A DNA stretch of 64,000 bases from Torpedo marmorata (taxonomy: Eukaryota). The notes beneath the pieces are model-generated. The model had not been told where the DNA came from and made no database searches. It saw only the letters and a program-made list of their open reading frames with translations. Both the position numbers and the translations under genes were made by a program. The stretch covers positions 126,418,001-126,482,000 of the forward strand of contig OZ360225.1 of NCBI GenBank assembly GCA_977017645.1, written 5' to 3'. This document shows, in pieces, positions 12,803 through 30,060 of the stretch. How positions within the stretch are numbered: position 1 is the first letter of the stretch; each line of letters starts with the position of its first letter.

Positions 12803-13059
12803 GAAAGTAAAACACAAAAGTCTGCAGACACCGTGGTTGAAGTAAAAACACAATCCTGGAAAAACTCAGCAGGTCAAACAGTGTACTTTAAATAGCAAAG
12901 ATAAAGATACATAACCAAAGTTTTGGGCTTGAGCCCTTCATCAAGGTACCTTCATACTTTGATGAAGGGCTCAAGCCCGAAACGTTGGTGATGTATGTTT
13001 ATCTTTGCTATATAAAGTACACTGTTTAACCTGCTGAGTTTCTCCAGCATTGTGTTTTT
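12803..13059. mobile_element. Penelope-like pLTR-derived fold-back palindrome
   Basis: Arms of ~100 bp are inverted repeats (ctggaaaaactcagcagg...gggcttgagcccttcatcaa / ttgatgaagggctcaagcccgaaacg...cctgctgagtttctccagc). 12-bp TSD acttgctgaaat at 12791-12802 and 13060-13071. Confidence 0.85.
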
Positions 13060-13806
13060 ACTTGCTGAAATAGGGCAGTTTGCATGTTGAAATCTGTTTG
13101 AAGAGTTTTTAATGAATACTGAAGCTGCCCAATGAAATCTCCCAATGTCTGCAAAGTGTCCCTGTTAAAGCCGAGAAAAACATGATGTGCTTCTTGTTCC
13201 ACACAGACTGTCCAACAATGGTCAAAGCACAAAGCTGAGAGATCCAATCATCACCAACGCAAGTTATACATATAAGTAAAGTTATTTATTATTAGGACAG
13301 TACCCGAGGTTAAGTAAAGGTCAGGTACAACCACAAGTAACATATGGGGGTGTGCCTAGAAGAAAGTTGCAATTGGCTCATTTTTACCAGATATAATTAC
13401 TGAGCAATTTACTCTGGGTAAAACTGAATTTTGTGCAATGAACTCTTCAAAAGTAGATGCAACATCATCTAATTTCTGGGCATATTTGTTCCAAATCCAA
13501 AATGATTTTAACAGGCATTCCGAAGAAGACAAGACAACCCAAATTAGAAAATACAAACTAAATATTTGTAAAGCCAGTAGGAGCATCACAATAATAAAAA
13601 TGACAATGAATTAATTTGGAATATTTTTACATCTTTCACAGAAATGCATGTTGATGTTAGCTGACCTTGTTAAACTGTGTAACCACTATTCTTTGAGTTT
13701 TATTTATGAGTAAATTAGGCTCCAATATCTGAAATTGTTAATAACTTTAACACCAAATTTGTAAAGCAACTAAGTTGAATTTTATCGTTTAATAATTAGG
13801 TTACTT

Positions 13807-14984
13807 ATCAAAATAGACTTATTTCATTTGCTTTTGATAATCAATTATTTAAAATTTGGTTTCAAAAGGGAATTAACAAAATAAATGACTGTTTTGAAGC
13901 TGGTAAATTTATTACTTTTCAAAGAATGAAAGATAAGTTTAATATATTAGACAATACGTTTTTTGCCTATTTCCAAATTAAAGCATTTTTAGTTGAAAGG
14001 TTGGGCCATAGTTTGACTTTACCTCGACAAAGTGAATTTGAATTATTAGTTACAAATGGAGGTGTAAATAAATTTATTTCTCAAATGTATAAATTATTAC
14101 AGAGGAAAATGCCTAAGGTAGCTATTCACAAATCAAGATTAAAATGGGAATTAGATTTGAATGTAACAATAGAAGAAAAGCATTGGAAAGAATTATGTAA
14201 ACTAAGTATGACTAAGATTATTAATGTTAGATATAGATTAGTGCAGTATAATTTTTTCCATCAATTATATTTAACACCTAAAAGATTAAAGAAATTTAAC
14301 CCGACATTATCAGATTTATGTTTTAGATGTAATAGGGAGGAAGGTTCTTTTGTACACTCTACATGGTTTTGTCCAAAGATATATGATTTTTGGTTGAAAG
14401 TTAAAAAGTTTTTAGATAAAGTATTAAGAAATACACTCCCAATGGATCCTATGATATTTTTATTTGGAGATATTAAAAGAATTAGTATTATGATGAAATT
14501 AAATATGTATCAAATAGAGTTTTTGAGAATTGCTTTAGCTGTGGCTAAGAAATGCATTGCTATTACTTGGAAGTCTGATGTAGATTTGGGTTTAGAAAGA
14601 TGGCATGCAGAACTTCATTCATGTATACCACTTGAAAAGATTACTTATAATTTACGTAATAAAAATCATTTCTTTTTGAAAACATGGAGCCCATACATAA
14701 AAGCGGTTGGTTTAAAAATTTGAAGATCTCCAGAGATCAGATCAGACGGGCGAATCCTACTTTCCACAAAAGATTTAGTTGATAGTTGTTCTTTTTTTAG
14801 ACATTCTCCTTATTCTATTTCTTTCTTTTCTTTATTTTTAGATTAGTGGGGGCGGGAGGGCTAGGGTGGGGAGGGTGGTTGGGGGGGAGAAAATGTATCA
14901 CATGTATTTTGATAATTTTATATTTTGCCTTATGTATTTTGTGATTTAAAAATTTTAAATAAAATATTTTAAAAAAAATAATAA
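13807..14984 (+). mobile_element. 5'-truncated L1 copy with TSD; uninterrupted ORF2 C-terminal frame 13926-14723
   Basis: 265-aa stop-free ORF2 C-terminus with CCHC finger, then G-tract, AATAAA and A/(TAA)n tail. 17-bp TSD taataattaggttactt at 13790-13806 and 14985-15001. Confidence 0.93.
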
Positions 14985-16531: not shown

Positions 16532-16893
16532 TGTAAGGGTTAAAATGCAGATTCAGCAAGAAGTCTGTGAAGACGTGTTGACATTCTTTGAGTGTCTCCA
16601 TAGAAATGTATTCTTAGCCAAGGTCTCTCTCTCTCTCTGCATGTTTAAGATAACGGTCAGTTTTGATTTTCATTTGTTCTGCGTTTTAATCATTGTTTAA
16701 TCATCGTTTTAATTGTTTTATCATAGTTTTAGTACCGTATAACAAAGTTGTAATAATGTAGTTACTGATATATAAGGTTTAATAAACCGTGAAAAACTCA
16801 ACTCAACTATAGTACAGACTATTTGTTTGAACAAGTCATAAACAACGACATTCAAGTCTCTCCAGGCAATTATAAAGGAAGATAGTCGCAATA
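16532..16893 (+). repeat. 5' LTR of the BEL/Pao element
   Basis: Begins tgtaagggttaaaa, contains (ct)n, ends gatagtcgcaata; near-identical to 22278-22686. Confidence 0.92.
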
Positions 16894-17751
16894 TTTAGTC
16901 AATAAAATAGGAACTATTAACTCATTAGTCAATAAAAGACGGAATTTAAGACAATAGAAAGTTGGAAATTGGATTTGGAATTCGGACTGAATCGATTGGT
17001 CTCTGTTTAGAGCATAACGAAGAAAGAGGCACAAATGTCAACAGCACCAAGGCCATTGAAGAAGCGGTAAGCCTTACTAAAGGATTCCTTCTGTGTGTTT
17101 ATTGCAAGTAATAACACAGCTTGGAGAAACTGCCGCTTGTCCTTTGAGGACTGTTTTGGTTTTGGAGTAATTGTTGTGCATTGTTGATGTCTGAGTGCGA
17201 CGATCGACTGGATGGATAAGATGGCAGCTGCTGCTGAAGCTGCTGCAACTAAGGAGCTACGTGTTGAGAAAATGAAGAAAAAGGAACATAAAAGAATTGC
17301 AAAGGCGGCAATTAAATACAAGTGGAAACAAAGCGACTCTTCAAGCAAGACTGAGTGAGGATATAGATAAGAAGACAGTTTCAGCTGCTAGGGATACAGA
17401 TCCCACAGAATTACTGCAAAAAACAATAATAGAAACTAAGTTCAGCCACAAAGAAATGGCTGAAACTGTGCCACAAGATGGTGGTGAGGAGGATGGGCAA
17501 TCTAAAATGGAGGCAGAGTCAGATATTAAGGTGACATCTGACTTACAGGATGAAATAGGACCTAAGGATAGTGTGTCAAATGCTCTAAGCAGGAGAATTA
17601 AGAGGAGTTCCAGATCAGGCTCCAGAGCTTCAGGTACTGAATCTATACGTCTAAAGATTCAGGCAGACATGACAGCTCTTGAAGTGGAAAAAAACAATGC
17701 TTCAAATTAAATTGGACTTAGAAGAGTGGGAGGAGAAGATAAGAATAACAT

Positions 17752-17955
17752 GGGTGCAGCTACGAAGAGAAGAGGAGCAAAAACAGGAGCAGCTACGAAG
17801 AGAAGAGGAGCAGAAACAGGAGCAGCTACGAAGAGAAGGGGAGCAGCTATCAAGAGAAGAGGAGCAGAAACAGGAGCAGCTACGAAGAGAAAGGGGAGCA
17901 GCTACGAAGAGAAGAGCAGAAACAGGAGCAGCTACGAAAAGAACAGGAGCAAAAA
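17752..17955 (+). repeat. 33-bp coding tandem repeat (EQLRREEEQKQ) in gag
   Basis: Unit gagcagctacgaagagaagaggagcagaaacag, about 6 full or partial copies. Confidence 0.9.
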
Positions 17956-18182
17956 TAGCAGCAGCTGAGGATGGAAAAGGAGCTGCAGGAGGAGCAGCTG
18001 GGAAGGGAGTAAGTGCAGTTAAAAAGGCAAATGGAGCTACTGGAACTGGGCAAAAGAATTGTTGTTAATCAGGTCAGGACGAAGGCACTAGAAGGCTCAG
18101 TGGTATCTGGAGCTCGAAGTAAATTATCTAAAGTGTCAAGTTTTGAGGAAGGACAACAGAAAAAGAAAATATTTAAGACCAA

Positions 18183-18435
18183 GGCTGAGCCAGTGCTGCA
18201 GTCACAAGACGTGCTTGATCCTGAACTAGGCAGGTTAAGGCACGGTGCTGAGTCAGTGTTACAACCACAATACACGCTTGGTCCTGAACTAGACAGGTTA
18301 AGGCACGGTGCTGAGCCAGTGCTACAATCACAATACATGTTTGGTCCTGAACTAGACAGGTTAAGGCACAGGGCTGAGCCAGTGCCGCGGTTACGTGACA
18401 TGCAAGATCCCAAATTAATCAGGTTAAAGCACGGT
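18183..18435 (+). repeat. 63-bp coding tandem repeat (AEPVLQSQYxxGPELDRLRHG) in gag
   Basis: Four degenerate 21-aa units in ORF 18013-18891. Confidence 0.85.
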
Positions 18436-20757
18436 GGTGCTAGATCTCAAACCCCAATAATGACCGCATTGGACAGAGATGTGAGCCTAATGCCATCATG
18501 TGAAACTGAATACCACCCGCTCCCGGCAGGTATTAGAAATCTGGGTGAACAAAGTAACTTTCGCCCAGGCATGACAAGACAAGATGATATAGCTGCATCA
18601 TTAATTCAGTTACAGACTTTCTCTTCTCTGCCCAAGAGAAAGATTCCAGTTTTTGATGGTGACCCACTTGAATTACAAGCATTTATGAAAAGCTTTGAAC
18701 GCAGTATTGAAATTAAGTGTCTAAACTCGGAGGATTGTTTATATTATTTGCAGCAGTTCACGAGTGGACAACCACAAGATCTTGTAAAGAGTTGCCAACA
18801 TATGGCTCCGAATGAAGGATTCAAACAGGCTAAGTCATTACTAAAGAAGCATTTTGGCAACAAGTATAGAATTTCTACAGCTTATGTATAGAAGGCTCTT
18901 TCATGGTCATCAATAAGACTGGATGACGCGAAAGGTTTACAAGCTTACGCCCTCTTTCTAAAAGGATTTTGCAACGTCATGATGGAGATTGGCCATCTTT
19001 GAGAGCTTGACATACCTAATAATATGGTAATCATTGTAAATAAATTACCCTTCTGGATGAGAGAATTATGGAGAAGTCAAGTTGTTGAATACCAGAAAAA
19101 ATGTGCTGAGAAGACTACTTTTAAGGATTTGATGGAGTTCATTGAAGGGCAAGTGGACGTTGTCACAGATCCAATGTATGGAATTATCAAAGATACTCAA
19201 CAGTAACTAAAGAAGTTGACAAGTCCAAATCGTATCCTCAACCAAAATGTTAAAAAAGTACATTTTCCACCTCATTGATAGTGGCGGATAAAGAAATGAA
19301 GGAAAATGAAAGTTTGCCTGTTGTGAAGAAATGTTTGTTCTGTAATGATAAGCATGACTTGGAAAAATGTTCACAGATGGAAATGAAGACGCACAGTGAG
19401 AAAATCGCTTTCTTGAAGGAAAATGGAGTATGTTTTGGCTGTCTGTGTAAAGGACACATTAGCAAAAACTGCAAAAAGCGACTCAGCTGCGACAGCATCC
19501 CAAAATGCTACATATCTTCAGGAAAAGAAGAATATGGAAAAGGAACAAGTGACCGGAAAGAAACAGATGAAAACAGTGCTGAAGCCCCGGTATTGACAAG
19601 TGGTCTTACTGGGGCCGGCACAGATAACTGCAAACTCTCAATAGTGCCTGTACAAGTTAAGGCCAGGAACGGGAATGCAACGGTACGTACACATGCATTT
19701 CTTGACCCAGGTAGCACTGTGTCATTTTGCACAGTGAAACTTATGAATAAGCTTAATCTTGAAGGAAGAAGGTCAAGGATTCTATTGAAAACCATGGGAC
19801 AAGAAAAGGTAATTGAAACTAACATCGTTTCAGGGTTAGAGGTTGCTGGAATACACAGCGATGATTTTTGCGATCTCCCAGGCATATACACACAGAAGAC
19901 TATGCCTGTGCATAAAGGAAACATCCCACATCAAAATGATGTAGATCGGTCGTTTATCTGAGGAAGGTTTATAAACCGGAAGATAGCTCTGAGATAGAGA
20001 TGCTAATTGGTTTAGATGTACCAAAGGCTCTGGAACAAATAGAAGTAATACCGAGTGTGAGAGATGGACCTTACGCTATCAAAACTATGCTTGGATGGAC
20101 AATCAATGGACCATTAGAAAGAAAGAATGATGTTGCTCAGAAGCAGTCAACAACAAGTGTCAATATGATATCTGTTGTGAAACACAACGAATCATTGAAA
20201 GAACCGTTCAAGACAGGCTTTCCTGAACGCCTCGATAACGACCAAAAACCCTCGAAAGAATACAAACAGTTCTTAGAAAATCTTGCTGACGAAAATAAAT
20301 CAAGAGCATCTAAACCAGCACTGAAGGAATTGTTTTCATCAAAAATGGATGAAAATGAAGTATTAGAAGATGCTGCAAATACTGCTAGTGATTATTCCTG
20401 CGAAGCTAAATCTGGGGCAGGAATGAAACAAATGTCTGGGAACAAATCTGAAAGCAGCTTTTGTAGCCAGATGCACCAGCAGACAAGATCAATGAAAAAA
20501 TCTTGCAACATGTTTTAAAACGGGCAAACGCAGAAAATTGCGCTGATGGTATAAAGGAGCATTTGATTGAAAATATGGTGCAACTGATTTCAGAGTACAA
20601 AATGTTGAAAAAGGACTTAGAAATATTGGATATTCGAGAAAACAGTGACCAAAAGATTTTTAACTTTGTACTTGGAAACAAAATTGATTTTCAGAAAAAT
20701 GGGAACGAATCTGATGATTCTTCAGTTTTGAAAGTGACCAAGAGAAAAGACCAGAGA

Positions 20758-21845
20758 GCAGTTAACAAGAATGGAGAGTTAATTGTAAATAGAATTCGTA
20801 AAGCCAAGTAGAAGAAAAGAATAACTGCTAAAGAAATGAGTGCAGTTATTGAAGAAAGGGATTTAGCCTTGTCAAGATGCATACAGTTGGAAGAGGAGAT
20901 TCATTTTTTGAAAAAGAACAAGTCATTGTTTAATGACACAAGACAACTGACTACGGAAAACAATCAAGAATGTACCATGGAGGAACATTGGAAAGAAATA
21001 TGTAAACAGAGTATGACGAAGATTATTAACGTTAGATATAGGTTAGTGCAATATAACTTTTTGCATCAATTATATTTAACACCTAAGAAATTAAAGAAAT
21101 TTAATTCGACATTATCAGGTTTATGTTTTACATGTAATAAAGAGGAAGGTTCTTTTGTACACTCTACGTGGCTTTGTCCAAAGATATATGATTTTTGGTT
21201 GAAAGTTAAAAAGTTTTTAGATAAAGTATTAAGAATTACATTCCCAATGGATCCTATGATATTTTTGTTTGGAGATATTAAAAGAATTAGTATTAAAATG
21301 AGATTAAATATGTATCAAATAGAATTTTTGCGAATTGCTTAGCTGTTTCAAAGAAATGCATTGCTATTACATGGAAATCTGATGTAGATTTAGGGTTAGA
21401 AAGATGGCATGCAGAACTTCGTTCAGCTATACCACTTGAAAAAATTACGTATAATTTACGTAATAAATATCATTTCTTTTTGAAAATATGGAGCCCATAT
21501 ATAAAAACTGTGGGTTTAAGGATTTGAAGATCTCTGGATATCAGATCTGACTGGTGAACCTGTGTTCCACTATAAAATTAGCTTATAGTTGTTTTTTTTT
21601 TAGATTGACATTCTCCATACTTTATCTTTTTCTTTCTTTTTTTCTTTATTTCTATATTATTAGAATAGTAAGGGTGGGAGGGTTAGGGAGGGAAGGGAGG
21701 GAGGGGGGGTGGAAAATATATCACATGTATTTTGACAATTTTGCATTTTATAAATATGTATTACCGAGTGATTTAAAATTTTAAATAAAATATTTTTTTA
21801 AAAATGTACCATGAAGGCCCAGTTAATAATGACGCAGAAGAGAAA
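20758..21845 (+). pseudogene. MIPOL1: Captured MIPOL1-like coding fragment inside the BEL element (20758-20979 plus 21814-~21845, split by an L1)
   Basis: Translation AVNKNGELIVNRIRKAK*KKRITAKEMSAVIEERDLALSRCIQLEEEIHFLKKNKSLFNDTRQLTTENNQECTM|KAQLIMTQ aligns colinearly with human MIPOL1 as I recall it: AIQKNGAIIVDRIYKTKECKMRITAEEMSALIEERDAALSKCKRLEQELHHVKEQNQTSANNMRHLTAENNQERALKAKLLSMQQ. The identification is from memory, not from a search. Confidence 0.8.
20980..21802 (+). mobile_element. 5'-truncated L1 inserted into the MIPOL1-like segment
   Basis: EEHWKEICKQSMTKIINVRYRL... ORF2 C-terminus, UTR and AATAAA; TSD aatgtaccatg at 20969-20979 and 21803-21813. Confidence 0.92.
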
Positions 21846-22030
21846 AAAAGGATGAACAAGCTTGTGATTATGAAGGTTAAAGAAACTCGTCCATTGGAAT
21901 CAAGGGTATCAGATGTCACACTTGACCAAACAATGTTGGATGAAGAAGCTGTGCAAGAGGTAATAATAAATCGTATCCATAGCTTCGAAAAAAAAAGGCC
22001 CATCTTGTGCTCTCAGGAAAGTGAATAAAT

Positions 22031-22168
22031 TGGAAATTAAGAATCGTGTTCAAGCACTGGATAGGGCCGGGGCAAACTTGCAAGCGGATTAAGACTAAAA
22101 CTGACTTTCTGAACAGACCAATTACCAAAATCTGTCTTTTACAAGAAGCAGAAAGCTTTGATATTTGA
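22031..22168 (+). pseudogene. BEL/Pao integrase extreme C-terminus (DUF5641-like)
   Basis: Manual translation WKLRIVFKHWIGPGQTCKRIKTKTDFLNRPITKICLLQEAESFDI*, matching the BEL pol end consensus KT...RPxxKxCLL. Confidence 0.85.
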
Positions 22169-22277
22169 CTTTCACTTTCTTTTGAATATTTAACCGATAT
22201 ATACTACTATGTTTGATTTTTTTCTTTGTAATGGTACTTATTATTATTTTTTAGATATAATAATTAGGGGCCGGTAT

Positions 22278-22686
22278 TGTAAGGGTTAAAACGCAGATTC
22301 TGCAAGAAGTCTGAAGACGTGTTGACATTCTTTGAGTGTCTCCATAGAAATGTATTCTTAGCCAAGGTCTCTCTCTCTCTCTCTCTCTGCATGTTTAAGA
22401 TAACAGTCAGTTTTGATTTTCCTTTGTTCTGCGAAGATGGAAAGACTTGAGATGGTCCGAAAACTTTTATTGACTGTTTTAATCATCGTTTAATCATCGT
22501 TTTAATTGTTTTATCATAGTTTTAGAACTGTATAACAAAGTTGTAATAATGTAGTTACTGATATATAAGGTTTAATAAACCATGAAAAACTCAACTCAAC
22601 TATAGTACGGACTATTTGTTTGAACGAGTCATAAACAACGACATTCAAGTCTCTCCAGGCGATTATAAAGGAAAATAGTTGCAATA
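22278..22686 (+). repeat. 3' LTR of the BEL/Pao element
   Basis: tgtaagggttaaaa...aatagttgcaata; has an extra ~43-bp block (aagatggaaagacttgagatggtccgaaaacttttattgactg) and a longer (ct)n than the 5' LTR. Confidence 0.92.
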
Positions 22687-24992: not shown

Positions 24993-25254
24993 AGTAAAAA
25001 CACAAAGCTGGAGAAACTCAGCAGGACAAACAGCGTCCTTTATATAGCAAAGGTAAAAATACATACCCGACGTTTCGGGCTTGAGCCCTATATCAAGGTA
25101 TGATAAAGCTTACTTTGATAAAGGGCTCAAGCCCGAAACGTCGGTTATGTATTTTTACCTTTGCTATATAAAATACACTGTTTGACCTGCTGAGTTTCTC
25201 CAGCTTTGTGTTTTTACTTCAACCACGTTGTCTACAGATTTTTGTCTTTTTACT
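24993..25254. mobile_element. Penelope-like pLTR-derived fold-back palindrome
   Basis: Long inverted arms with ttgataaagggctcaagcccgaaacgtc; imperfect TSD ataaaccacaa / ataaagcacaa. Confidence 0.85.
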
Positions 25255-28629: not shown

Positions 28630-30060
28630 CCTCATACGCCAGGCTGCTGTCATTGACTTCAGTTCGGCATTTAATGCAATCATTCCCCAGAGGTTGGTAG
28701 AGAAGCTCTCCTCGCTGTGACTCAACACCCCTCTCTGTAACTAAATTCTGGACTTCCTAACAGAAAGACCACAGTCTGTCTGGGTCGGTAGCAGAACGTC
28801 GAGCACTGTCACGCTGAGCACGGGTGCACCTCAGGGCTGTGTGCTCAGCCCTCTCCTGTTCATGCTACTGATCCATGACTGCATCGCCAGATCCAGCTCC
28901 AACAGTGTCATCAAGTTTGCAGATGACACAACAGTAGTTGACCTCATCAGCAACAATGATGAGTCAGACTACAGAGAAGAGGTGGAAAATCTCATGATAT
29001 GGTGCGAGTAACAACCTGAGTCTCAACGAGGACAAGACGAAGGAGATGATCGTGGACTTCAGGAGGATAAGGAATGACCACTCTCCACTACACATCAACA
29101 ACTCTGTAGTCGAGAGAGTGGAGAGCACCAAGTTCCTTGGAGTTCACTTAACTAGTAACCTCTTGTGGACACTCAACATCTCCTAACTTGTCAGAAAGGT
29201 GCAACAGTGATTGTACTTCCTGAGAAAATGGAAGTGGGCAAGGTTACCGGCCACCATCATGTCAACTTTCTACAGGAGCTATATCGAGAGCATCCTGGCC
29301 GACTGCATCACAGTGCGGTACAGTTGCTGCAGAGAAATGGATCGGAGGTCAATCTGCAGGACCGTAAGAGTGGCAGAGAGGATCACTGGAGTCTCCCTTC
29401 CACCCCCACCCCCCACCCCCCACCCCCCACTCTATCGACATGATCTACTGGGATCATTTTCTGGAGGGTGCGCAAAAGCATTAAGGACCCCTTCCATCCC
29501 GCACACAGAATCTTTCAGCTGCCTGCATCGGGAAAGAGATACAGGAGTACAGTATCAGAGCCAGTACCACGAGGCCGAGAAACAGCTTCTTCCCTGGGGC
29601 AGTGAGAATGCTGAACGACCAAAGGAACTGCTCACAATAACTATCCGAGACTCTCTTATTCATGAAACAATATTTATTGATGTATTTGAATATATGAATA
29701 CTTGTCCTGCATATGTATTGTGTTATAAAAAACACAAATGCTGGAGAAACTCAACAGGTCAAACAGTGTCTTTTATGTAGCAAAGGTAGAAATACATAAC
29801 CGACGTTTCGGGCCTCAGGCCTGAAATGTCGGTACTGTATTTCTACCTTTGCTACATAAAAGACACTGTTTGACCTGCTGAGTTTCTCCAGCATTTGTGT
29901 TTTTTACTTCAACCACGGTGTCTACAGATTTTCGTGTTTTACCTATGTATTGTGTTATGTCTGGTTGTGTGTCTGTGTGTTTTGCACCAAGGGCTGGAGA
30001 ACGCTGTTTCGTCGGGTTGTATTTGTGCAATTAGAGGACAATAAACTTGACTTGACTTGA
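28630..30060 (+). mobile_element. Rex1/Babar LINE, 5'-truncated and degenerate (RT plus DUF1891-like C-terminus)
   Basis: [56 protein letters not shown]; tail gacaataaa(cttga)n. Confidence 0.92.
29727..29943. mobile_element. Penelope-like fold-back palindrome inserted in the Rex1 3'UTR
   Basis: Inverted arms around gacgtttcgggcctcaggcctgaaatgtc; perfect 15-bp TSD tatgtattgtgttat at 29712-29726 and 29944-29958. Confidence 0.9.

What the first reader, a model, noticed from the sequence alone, without database searches (positions are those of the whole stretch)
20758..21845. BEL/Pao LTR element carrying a captured MIPOL1 host-gene fragment in place of RT, RNase H and integrase
Seen: between the BEL protease region (GPYAIKTMLGW...FPE...KQFLE, ending ~20280) and the integrase tail (22031-22168) there are no pol motifs. 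Instead, about 85 codons read KNGELIVNRIRKAK*KKRITAKEMSAVIEERDLALSRCIQLEEEIH...TRQLTTENNQECTMKAQL, in sense orientation. Knowledge: this matches the coiled-coil region of vertebrate MIPOL1 (mirror-image polydactyly 1) as I recall it (KNGAIIVDRIYKTK...RITAEEMSALIEERDAALSKCKRLEQEL...RHLTAENNQERALKAKL). Homology continues across the L1 junction once the L1 and one TSD copy are removed. Inference: this is retroviral-style transduction of a cellular mRNA by RT template switching, as in acutely transforming retroviruses, giving a non-autonomous gag-pro-cargo element. I am not aware of this being described for a vertebrate BEL/Pao element. This copy is now pseudogenised.
Basis: partly seen in the sequence, partly recalled or inferred. 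Interest (0 to 1): 0.9.

Follow-up and report, generated by a model that had tools for sequence, protein, structure and literature searches.

The report
Retrotransposon hoarding four host gene fragments
A retrotransposon family with hundreds, likely thousands, of copies in this ray-like fish genome carries intron-free pieces of host genes (BRCA1, MIPOL1, Elongin A and, in this branch, likely IARS1) in place of its copying enzymes, and the MIPOL1 exons lie in back-spliced order, so that piece was likely copied from a circular RNA.

Summary
The window holds a decayed copy of a non-autonomous BEL/Pao family. About 3.2 kb of pol (RT, RNase H, integrase) is replaced by sense-strand host cargo: BRCA1, MIPOL1, ELOA and, in this branch, probably IARS1. 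BRCA1, MIPOL1 and ELOA cross host exon junctions without introns. In longer copies MIPOL1 runs E-F-G then A-B-C: the donor end of exon G is joined exactly to the acceptor of upstream exon A (220 exact junction matches, control 0). That is the back-splice signature of a 780-nt circle; the circle itself was not observed. The cargo rides two autonomous BEL lineages. One branch has just amplified (40 top hits about 100% identical; 28 of 30 copies open through protease and cargo). Cargo residues drift at the neutral ratio, yet lineage-level stops are 0 against 7.7 expected, and 8 of 8 shared indels are in frame. The likely reason is selection to translate to the end of the RNA (decay avoidance), not a useful cargo protein. 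New variant of LTR gene capture (Bs1-like). No RNA evidence.

The parts
16532..16893 (+). 5' LTR (beta type)
   Evidence: 347/360 aligned nt identical to the 3' LTR, with a ~49-nt length difference; 92-93% to the autonomous beta copy. Flanks AGGCA / GCATT are not a clean target duplication, unlike 5-bp duplications in five other copies.
17221..19600 (+). gag: SAP domain, Glu/Arg-rich and 63-nt repeats, DUF1759, CCHC knuckle; broken by several stops and frameshifts
   Evidence: Pfam SAP E 2e-5, DUF1759 E 5e-4; 84-96% to autonomous beta, 67-79% to alpha in well-aligned bins
19600..20278 (+). aspartic protease and start of the RT connection; an older lineage that travelled with the cargo
   Evidence: Asp_protease_2 E 0.005, below cut-off; about 80% to both alpha and beta, 65-69% in 20100-20250; own clade 100/99 in the protease tree
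20279..20753 (+). BRCA1 fragment (about aa 226-385 of skate BRCA1), spliced, one frameshift in this copy
   Evidence: Copy L007 hits Rhinoraja BRCA1 XP_078280482 at E 1e-35, 54%; window matches by tblastn at E 8e-43; 112/128 nt to the host exon at C61, and the cargo keeps matching BRCA1 protein upstream of that exon's acceptor where host DNA is intron
20754..20877 (+). MIPOL1 exon E, 3' part
   Evidence: 111/124 nt to host C40:64492639-64492513
20878..20979 (+). MIPOL1 exon F, joined to E without the 29-kb intron; its last 3 nt lie at 21814-21816
   Evidence: 93/105 nt to host C40:64463599-64463492
20980..21802 (+). 5'-truncated L1-type insertion, private to this copy; 11-bp target duplication at 20969-20979 / 21803-21813
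   Evidence: zf-RVT E 7e-4; 93% to another L1 end at 14181; absent at this place from 29 of 29 other copies
21817..21839 (+). MIPOL1 exon G remnant; a 363-nt in-frame lineage deletion removes the rest of G, the back-splice junction, A, B and the start of ELOA
   Evidence: 24/28 nt to host exon G; indel table; long-form copies keep it
21835..21914 (+). ELOA (Elongin A) remnant
   Evidence: 79% over 81 nt, E 7e-13, to the ELOA part of older copy L169, which is 95/99 and 64/69 nt to two host ELOA exons across their junction. Alone, the window peptide is weak (E 0.16).
21912..22013 (+). probable IARS1 fragment (cytoplasmic isoleucyl-tRNA synthetase, about aa 975-1007), found only in this branch
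   Evidence: Sister copy L013: top two PDB hits are IleRS, E 1.9e-5 and 2.7e-4; window copy E 0.022, only hit. Host exon not fetched.
22014..22084 (+). unassigned cargo end; the frame stops here or at the junction, depending on the length of an A-run
22085..22277 (+). integrase C-terminal tail, 3' UTR and polypurine-tract-like motif (22262-22274)
   Evidence: 95-97% to beta copies; junction shown
22278..22686 (+). 3' LTR

Best explanation
This is a decayed copy of a non-autonomous BEL/Pao family whose RT, RNase H and integrase are replaced by intron-free, sense-strand pieces of BRCA1, MIPOL1, ELOA and probably IARS1, likely picked up by reverse-transcriptase template switching, with the MIPOL1 piece likely copied from a circular RNA. 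Shown: in the oldest copies the order is gag-pro | BRCA1 | MIPOL1 exons E'-F-G>A-B-C' | ELOA | integrase tail, in one frame, and G>A is an exact donor-to-upstream-acceptor join. Inferred: RT crossed the back-splice point of a co-packaged 780-nt A-to-G circle. Shown: descendants carry LTR and gag of two different autonomous BEL lineages, and one branch has just amplified. Inferred: they borrow RT and integrase in trans and refresh their ends by recombining with the helper. Shown: cargo residues change at the neutral ratio, while stops and frameshifts are missing from replicating lineages. Inferred (about even odds): the cargo works as translatable filler that keeps the stop codon 200-420 nt from the 3' LTR, as in the helper, so the RNA escapes long-3'-UTR decay.
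For: Host exons with canonical splice sites, each once in 350 kb of C40. Permuted order in long-form copies; junction letters equal exon G end plus exon A start, while upstream exon Z ends differently. 220 exact 21-mer junction matches, reversed control 0. 19 of the 100 listed junctions have an Elongin_A match 0.5-1.7 kb downstream on the same strand, wrong side or strand 0, chance 0.004. BRCA1 and ELOA named by hits and matched to host exons across junctions. Helper lineage alpha has all BEL domains in one frame and is 90-96% to branch S2 over LTR-gag-pro. S2 proteases are interleaved with alpha, and S1+S2 as one clade is rejected, p-AU 0.0017. Backbone alpha-beta dS 0.76-1.12 against cargo S1-S2 dS 0.29-0.43. 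Lineage-level n:s 117:42 and 36:11 against singleton 331:102, Fisher p 0.52 and 1.0; 0 stops against 7.7 expected, P 4.5e-4. 8 of 8 shared indels are multiples of 3, P 1.5e-4 (counted by eye; P). Exonic MIPOL1 circRNAs are listed in mouse and human (PMC9888537, PMC8176118, PMC8783515; exons not stated in the passages seen).
Against: The A-to-G circle was not observed in any RNA, and transcription of the element was not shown. The join sits in a 3-nt microhomology (AG|C) shared by the G|H and Z|A junctions of linear mRNA, so a backward template jump can give the same letters. Microhomology at the gene-to-gene joins could not be tested without host DNA there. A +1 change in a T-run is shared by 3 S1 copies (L010, L026, L161), and the A-run near the end of the IARS1 piece varies in length. 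One pairwise cargo comparison gave omega 0.34, as low as gag, so some residue constraint is not excluded. The neutral baseline comes from post-insertion mutations, whose spectrum may differ from RT errors. IARS1 rests on protein hits only.
Confidence: 0.75

Rival explanations
1. Same capture, but the G>A join did not come from a circle: RT jumped backward between linear MIPOL1 mRNAs at the short AG|C match that exon junctions share, or it copied a trans-spliced or exon-repeated transcript.
For: The element made at least three other switches between RNAs. The 3-nt microhomology exists. [quoted passage not shown]
Against: The join hits an exon end and an exon start to the base, whereas the other cargo ends that could be mapped fall inside exons (E, B or C, ELOA). 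All MIPOL1 cargo lies within exons A-G, none from Z, H or I. No second exon A lies between G and H in the host gene.
Confidence: 0.17
2. The cargo is kept because the fusion protein does something, for example a MIPOL1 coiled coil that helps Gag particles assemble or, in the oldest form, an Elongin A BC-box region that recruits a host ubiquitin ligase.
For: All host pieces are sense and in their own frame. The MIPOL1 E-F-G coiled coil survives in both long branches. Omega is 0.34-0.51 in two of three S2 pairs. The oldest form scores over the Elongin_A cut-off.
Against: Pooled lineage-level n:s does not differ from neutral. Large in-frame deletions removed different parts in different branches. 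The Elongin A domain is lost in S1 and S2, including the branch that has just amplified.
Confidence: 0.2
3. A processed pseudogene, or several, inserted later into one dead BEL copy.
For: The window copy does hold a later insertion (the L1).
Against: The cargo is shared by all 40 top hits of each of four searches, replaces 3.2 kb of pol rather than interrupting it, and no poly(A) or target duplication of its own was seen at its ends.
Confidence: 0.01

Closest known systems
Maize Bs1 (Elrouby and Bureau; seen through passages of PMC5131818 and PMC13317346)
   Same: LTR element carrying exonic pieces of three host genes as one hybrid frame, with shared switch points among copies.
   Different: Bs1 has 1-5 copies and one piece is out of frame. 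This family is vertebrate BEL/Pao, has hundreds to thousands of copies, all pieces in frame, a back-spliced piece, and rides two helper lineages.
LTR-mediated retrocopies in animals (Tan et al. 2016, PMC5131818), including Pao BATUMI with two genes, BEL18_AG, and the mouse four-gene 'Super' retrocopy
   Same: Partial mRNAs replace internal retrotransposon frames by template switching; several genes can be joined; secondary retroposition occurs.
   Different: The passages seen do not mention circular RNA (0 hits for 'circ') and attribute open frames to youth. Here the frame stays open across 20-28% divergence from the host exons in the youngest branch.
circRNA-derived pseudogenes (Dong et al. 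2016, PMC4897178), mouse circRfwd2
   Same: Non-colinear exon junction in 33 genomic copies, little poly(A), LTR sequence enriched in the flanks.
   Different: That paper leaves the mechanism open. Here the back-spliced exons sit between protease and integrase tail of complete two-LTR elements with target duplications, in frame with gag, beside an identified helper.
Acutely transforming retroviruses (recalled, no call)
   Same: Host RNA replaces viral genes, is fused to gag, and depends on a helper.
   Different: No env, no sign of selection on the captured protein sequence, germline amplification.

Membership tests
BEL/Pao (Belpaoviridae) LTR retrotransposon | Two LTRs, 5-bp target duplication | tested here: met
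   LTRs in the window; perfect 5-bp duplications in L093, L104, L106, s64283, s64408; not clean in the window copy
BEL/Pao (Belpaoviridae) LTR retrotransposon | Single gag-pol frame in the order Gag (DUF1759), PR (DUF1758), RT, Pao RNase H (Peptidase_A17), IN, DUF5641 | tested here: met
   Met by the autonomous relative L137. The cargo element keeps gag, PR and the last codons of IN and aligns to these relatives on both sides of the cargo.
BEL/Pao (Belpaoviridae) LTR retrotransposon | Own RT, RNase H and integrase (autonomy) | tested here: not met
   Replaced by cargo; it is a non-autonomous derivative
LTR-mediated retrocopy (Bs1 / Tan 2016 type) | Intron-free host exons replacing internal frames | tested here: met
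   MIPOL1 E|F, F|G, A|B, B|C; one BRCA1 and one ELOA junction
LTR-mediated retrocopy (Bs1 / Tan 2016 type) | No poly(A) or own target duplication at the cargo ends | tested here: met
   junction sequences
LTR-mediated retrocopy (Bs1 / Tan 2016 type) | Microsimilarity at switch points | tested here: inconclusive
   Host DNA was held for one switch only (ELOA to tail; at most 1-2 shared letters); the other donor sites were not fetched
LTR-mediated retrocopy (Bs1 / Tan 2016 type) | Co-transcription from the LTR | tested here: inconclusive
   No run on record as RNA; contigs only
circRNA-derived retrocopy (Dong 2016) | Non-colinear junction exactly at a downstream donor and an upstream acceptor | tested here: met
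   lost by deletion in the window copy itself
circRNA-derived retrocopy (Dong 2016) | Sequence confined to the circle's exons | tested here: met
   E, F, G, A, B, C only; nothing from Z, H or I
circRNA-derived retrocopy (Dong 2016) | The parent circRNA is seen in RNA | not testable with these tools
   No raw RNA run offered
L1 processed pseudogene | Poly(A), own target duplication, single locus | tested here: not met

The most novel reading that the evidence does not exclude
A vertebrate LTR retrotransposon captured a host circular RNA across its back-splice junction, added three more host genes, and has since passed this cassette between helper lineages and amplified it to thousands of copies. 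What is selected is an unbroken reading frame rather than a protein. This would supply the missing mechanism for circRNA-derived pseudogenes and a general rule for why LTR-captured genes come out sense and in frame.
Probability: 0.5. Interest if true: 0.9.

Novelty: new variant of a known kind. Interest (0 to 1): 0.8.

Why it matters
Dong et al. 2016 left open how circular RNAs get back into genomes. Here a back-splice junction sits inside complete LTR elements with a known helper, which points to LTR template switching. The family also gives a large natural series in which frame maintenance can be told apart from protein function: residues drift, stops and frameshifts do not. If that is decay avoidance, it explains why captured genes arrive translation-ready, the raw material for chimeric genes. 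Practical point: this genome holds over a hundred decoy matches each for BRCA1 and ELOA (149 and about 130 scored) and more for MIPOL1, which will mislead annotation, read mapping and circRNA calling.

Tried and rejected
Pfam scan of the cargo frames: no MIPOL1, BRCA1 or IARS1 family (the precomputed MIPOL1 accessions did not come up). Word-based protein search for the 3' piece found nothing; PDB and the HMMER representative search then named it. PDB search with the BRCA1 piece gave only chance titin hits; the S2 3' piece gave none. No chimeric cargo protein appeared; repeats are often masked before annotation, so this says little about other species. My first reading that the window backbone is wholly beta type was rejected: its protease is an own lineage. 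My first figure for the short-form deletion (351 nt) was replaced by 363 nt. Purifying selection on cargo residues was tested and not found in pooled counts. Sequencing runs: no RNA holder listed. Contigs of runs X1, X2 and X6 have depth in the bins across the S2 cargo, X4 patchily, and one X1 contig bridges the S2 form of the junction with no other letters; X6 is only guessed to be RNA, and a holder may be the source sample. No tRNA gene in the window, and the conserved motif after the 5' LTR was not matched to a primer. Earlier findings of this scan: none returned. Literature searches that showed no description of this family or of circRNA cargo in an LTR element; open-access text only, listings of at most 20 papers, repeat libraries such as Repbase or Dfam not searchable.

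Full report
Observation. The window element runs from LTR 16532-16893 to LTR 22278-22686 (347/360 aligned nt identical). The best hits suggest the host is a ray; that is inference. An L1 3' end at 20980-21802 with an 11-bp duplication is private to this copy.

A family, not a single event. The cargo query found 4315 first-look candidates in the 6.2-Gb genome; the 39 best other than the window are 93-96% identical. Three more queries gave 1646, 5563 and 5160 candidates. Candidates are not copy numbers; the firm lower bound is 220 exact matches to one 21-mer. Autonomous BEL relatives align up to w20278 and again from w22085, with 3.2 kb of RT, RNase H and integrase between, so the cargo replaced pol.

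Back-splice. Longer copies carry MIPOL1 residues 444-553 followed by 295-370. I located the host gene on C40 and mapped exons Z and A to I; in the 350 kb scanned from A to I each occurs once, with canonical splice sites. The cargo reads E(3' part)-F-G-A-B, and in the oldest copies on into C. The G>A join is exon G's last base followed by exon A's first base, 206 kb upstream in the gene; exon Z, which precedes A in mRNA, ends differently. Exons A-G sum to 780 nt, in frame, and about 590 nt of this are in the oldest cargo. Against a circle: the join lies in a 3-nt AG|C microhomology, and no RNA was available. Exonic MIPOL1 circRNAs are listed for mouse and human (table passages of PMC9888537, PMC8176118, PMC8783515). 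The window copy belongs to a short form that lost this junction in a 363-nt in-frame deletion.

More host genes. The 475 nt before MIPOL1 are BRCA1: skate and bamboo shark BRCA1 at E 1e-35 and 4e-22. The host's large exon is at C61; the cargo matches it at 112/128 nt and continues as BRCA1 protein upstream of its acceptor, where the host has intron. After MIPOL1 comes Elongin A. I first recalled the motif, then tested it: top PDB hit E 7e-5; 136 Elongin_A matches in the genome; 19 of the 100 listed junction sites have one 0.5-1.7 kb downstream on the same strand, control 0. Two such old copies (S0; L169, L170) match two host ELOA exons at 93-96% across their junction. The window's branch adds a piece whose top PDB hits are cytoplasmic IleRS (E 1.9e-5, 2.7e-4; window copy 0.022); its host exon was not fetched. 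About 70 nt remain unassigned.

Helpers and history. Two autonomous lineages exist. Alpha: four fetched copies have stop-free frames of 2043-2134 aa, and the one scanned has all BEL domains. Beta: the three copies examined at length are decayed. Branch S2 is 90-96% to alpha over LTR-gag-pro, its 40 best hits are about 100% identical, 28 of 30 fetched copies are open through protease and cargo, and 3 of 4 further 10-kb fetches plus one host-region copy have one 1321-1354 aa frame. Branch S1 (the window) is 84-97% to beta in LTR, gag and tail but about 80% to both lineages in the protease; 0 of 30 copies are open over the same span. In a 20-row protease tree S1 is its own clade, S2 is interleaved with alpha, and S1+S2 as one clade is rejected (p-AU 0.0017, unrooted). 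Backbone dS between alpha-type and beta (0.76-1.12) exceeds cargo dS between S1 and S2 (0.29-0.43). I infer that the cassette was passed on by recombination with helpers after these split. Identity to host exons falls from S0 (93-98%) through S1 (88-93%) to the youngest S2 (72-90%), as expected for continued replication.

What is selected. Using each column's commonest codon as a yardstick (77 of 84 copies; seven with large insertions, a large deletion or wrong orientation left out), S1 against young S2 differs by 117 non-synonymous and 42 synonymous changes, and two S2 groups by 36 and 11. Singleton changes give 331:102 (Fisher p 0.52 and 1.0). So residues look neutral, whereas gag omega is 0.21-0.36 and pol 0.17-0.34. 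Yet 21 of 454 singleton changes are stops, predicting 7.7 between S1 and S2, and none is seen (P 4.5e-4). Shared indels against natural copy L169 are 3, 93, 363, 120, 81, 195, 24 and 3 nt, 8 of 8 in frame (P 1.5e-4; counted by eye, leaving out events private to L169 and the poorly aligned 5' edge); private indels are mostly frameshifts. Against: a +1 in a T-run shared by three S1 copies, a variable terminal A-run, and one pair with cargo omega 0.34. The frame ends 205 nt (alpha), about 250 nt (S1) and 418 nt (S2) before the 3' LTR. Retroviral RNA with a long 3' UTR is a predicted target of nonsense-mediated decay unless shielded (abstract of PMC2925335). I therefore favour decay avoidance, at about even odds, over a functional cargo protein.

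Comparison and novelty. Capture of several genes by LTR elements is known: Bs1, Pao BATUMI, BEL18_AG and a four-gene mouse retrocopy (passages of PMC5131818 and PMC13317346). circRNA-derived pseudogenes with nearby LTRs are known, with the mechanism left open (PMC4897178, main text read to the acknowledgments). Supplements of these papers were not seen and may bear on how close the mouse circRfwd2 copies are to this case. My searches showed no report of this family, nor of a back-spliced cargo fused in frame inside an amplifying LTR element. Verdict: real, new variant of a known kind, interest 0.8. The circRNA origin and the reason for the open frame are inferred, and no expression data were obtained.

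Noticed in passing
G000:C40:64250001-64660000 (MIPOL1 introns): Five copies of the S2 cargo element and one decayed autonomous beta element lie inside the MIPOL1 gene itself. If typical, that density means tens of thousands of copies; the region may not be typical.
   Followed up: partly
L169 cargo against host exons and P0002/P0003: At several sites the oldest cargo has the residue shared by Narcine and Pristis where the host gene differs (exon G A/T, exon B A/T; exon B D/G in L170), and the host's residue where Narcine differs. This suggests capture near or before the split from the Narcine lineage (read). Cargo and Narcine both lack one residue in exon F, possibly independently.
   Followed up: no
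G000:C40 exons A-G: The putative circle is 780 nt = 260 codons with no stop, an endless frame (exon lengths, exon C start corrected by one base).
   Followed up: partly
window 16894-16907 and all copies examined: A conserved T/A-rich motif follows the 5' LTR in alpha, beta and cargo elements where a primer-binding site is expected; it does not begin with the usual TGG.
   Followed up: no
window 17291-17359: Gag of both BEL lineages begins with a SAP domain.
   Followed up: partly
L101:642-3897: A second related BEL copy in opposite orientation is nested in the gag of an S1 copy; L170 has its own L1 end inside exon A.
   Followed up: no
window 12809-13063, 24993-25250, 29726-29907: Three copies of a near-perfect palindromic repeat (arms 90-140 nt), MITE-like.
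   Followed up: no
G000:C25:175318134 and 175336908: A second intron-containing Elongin A gene; the cargo matches the C41 gene far better (96-99% against 77%).
   Followed up: partly
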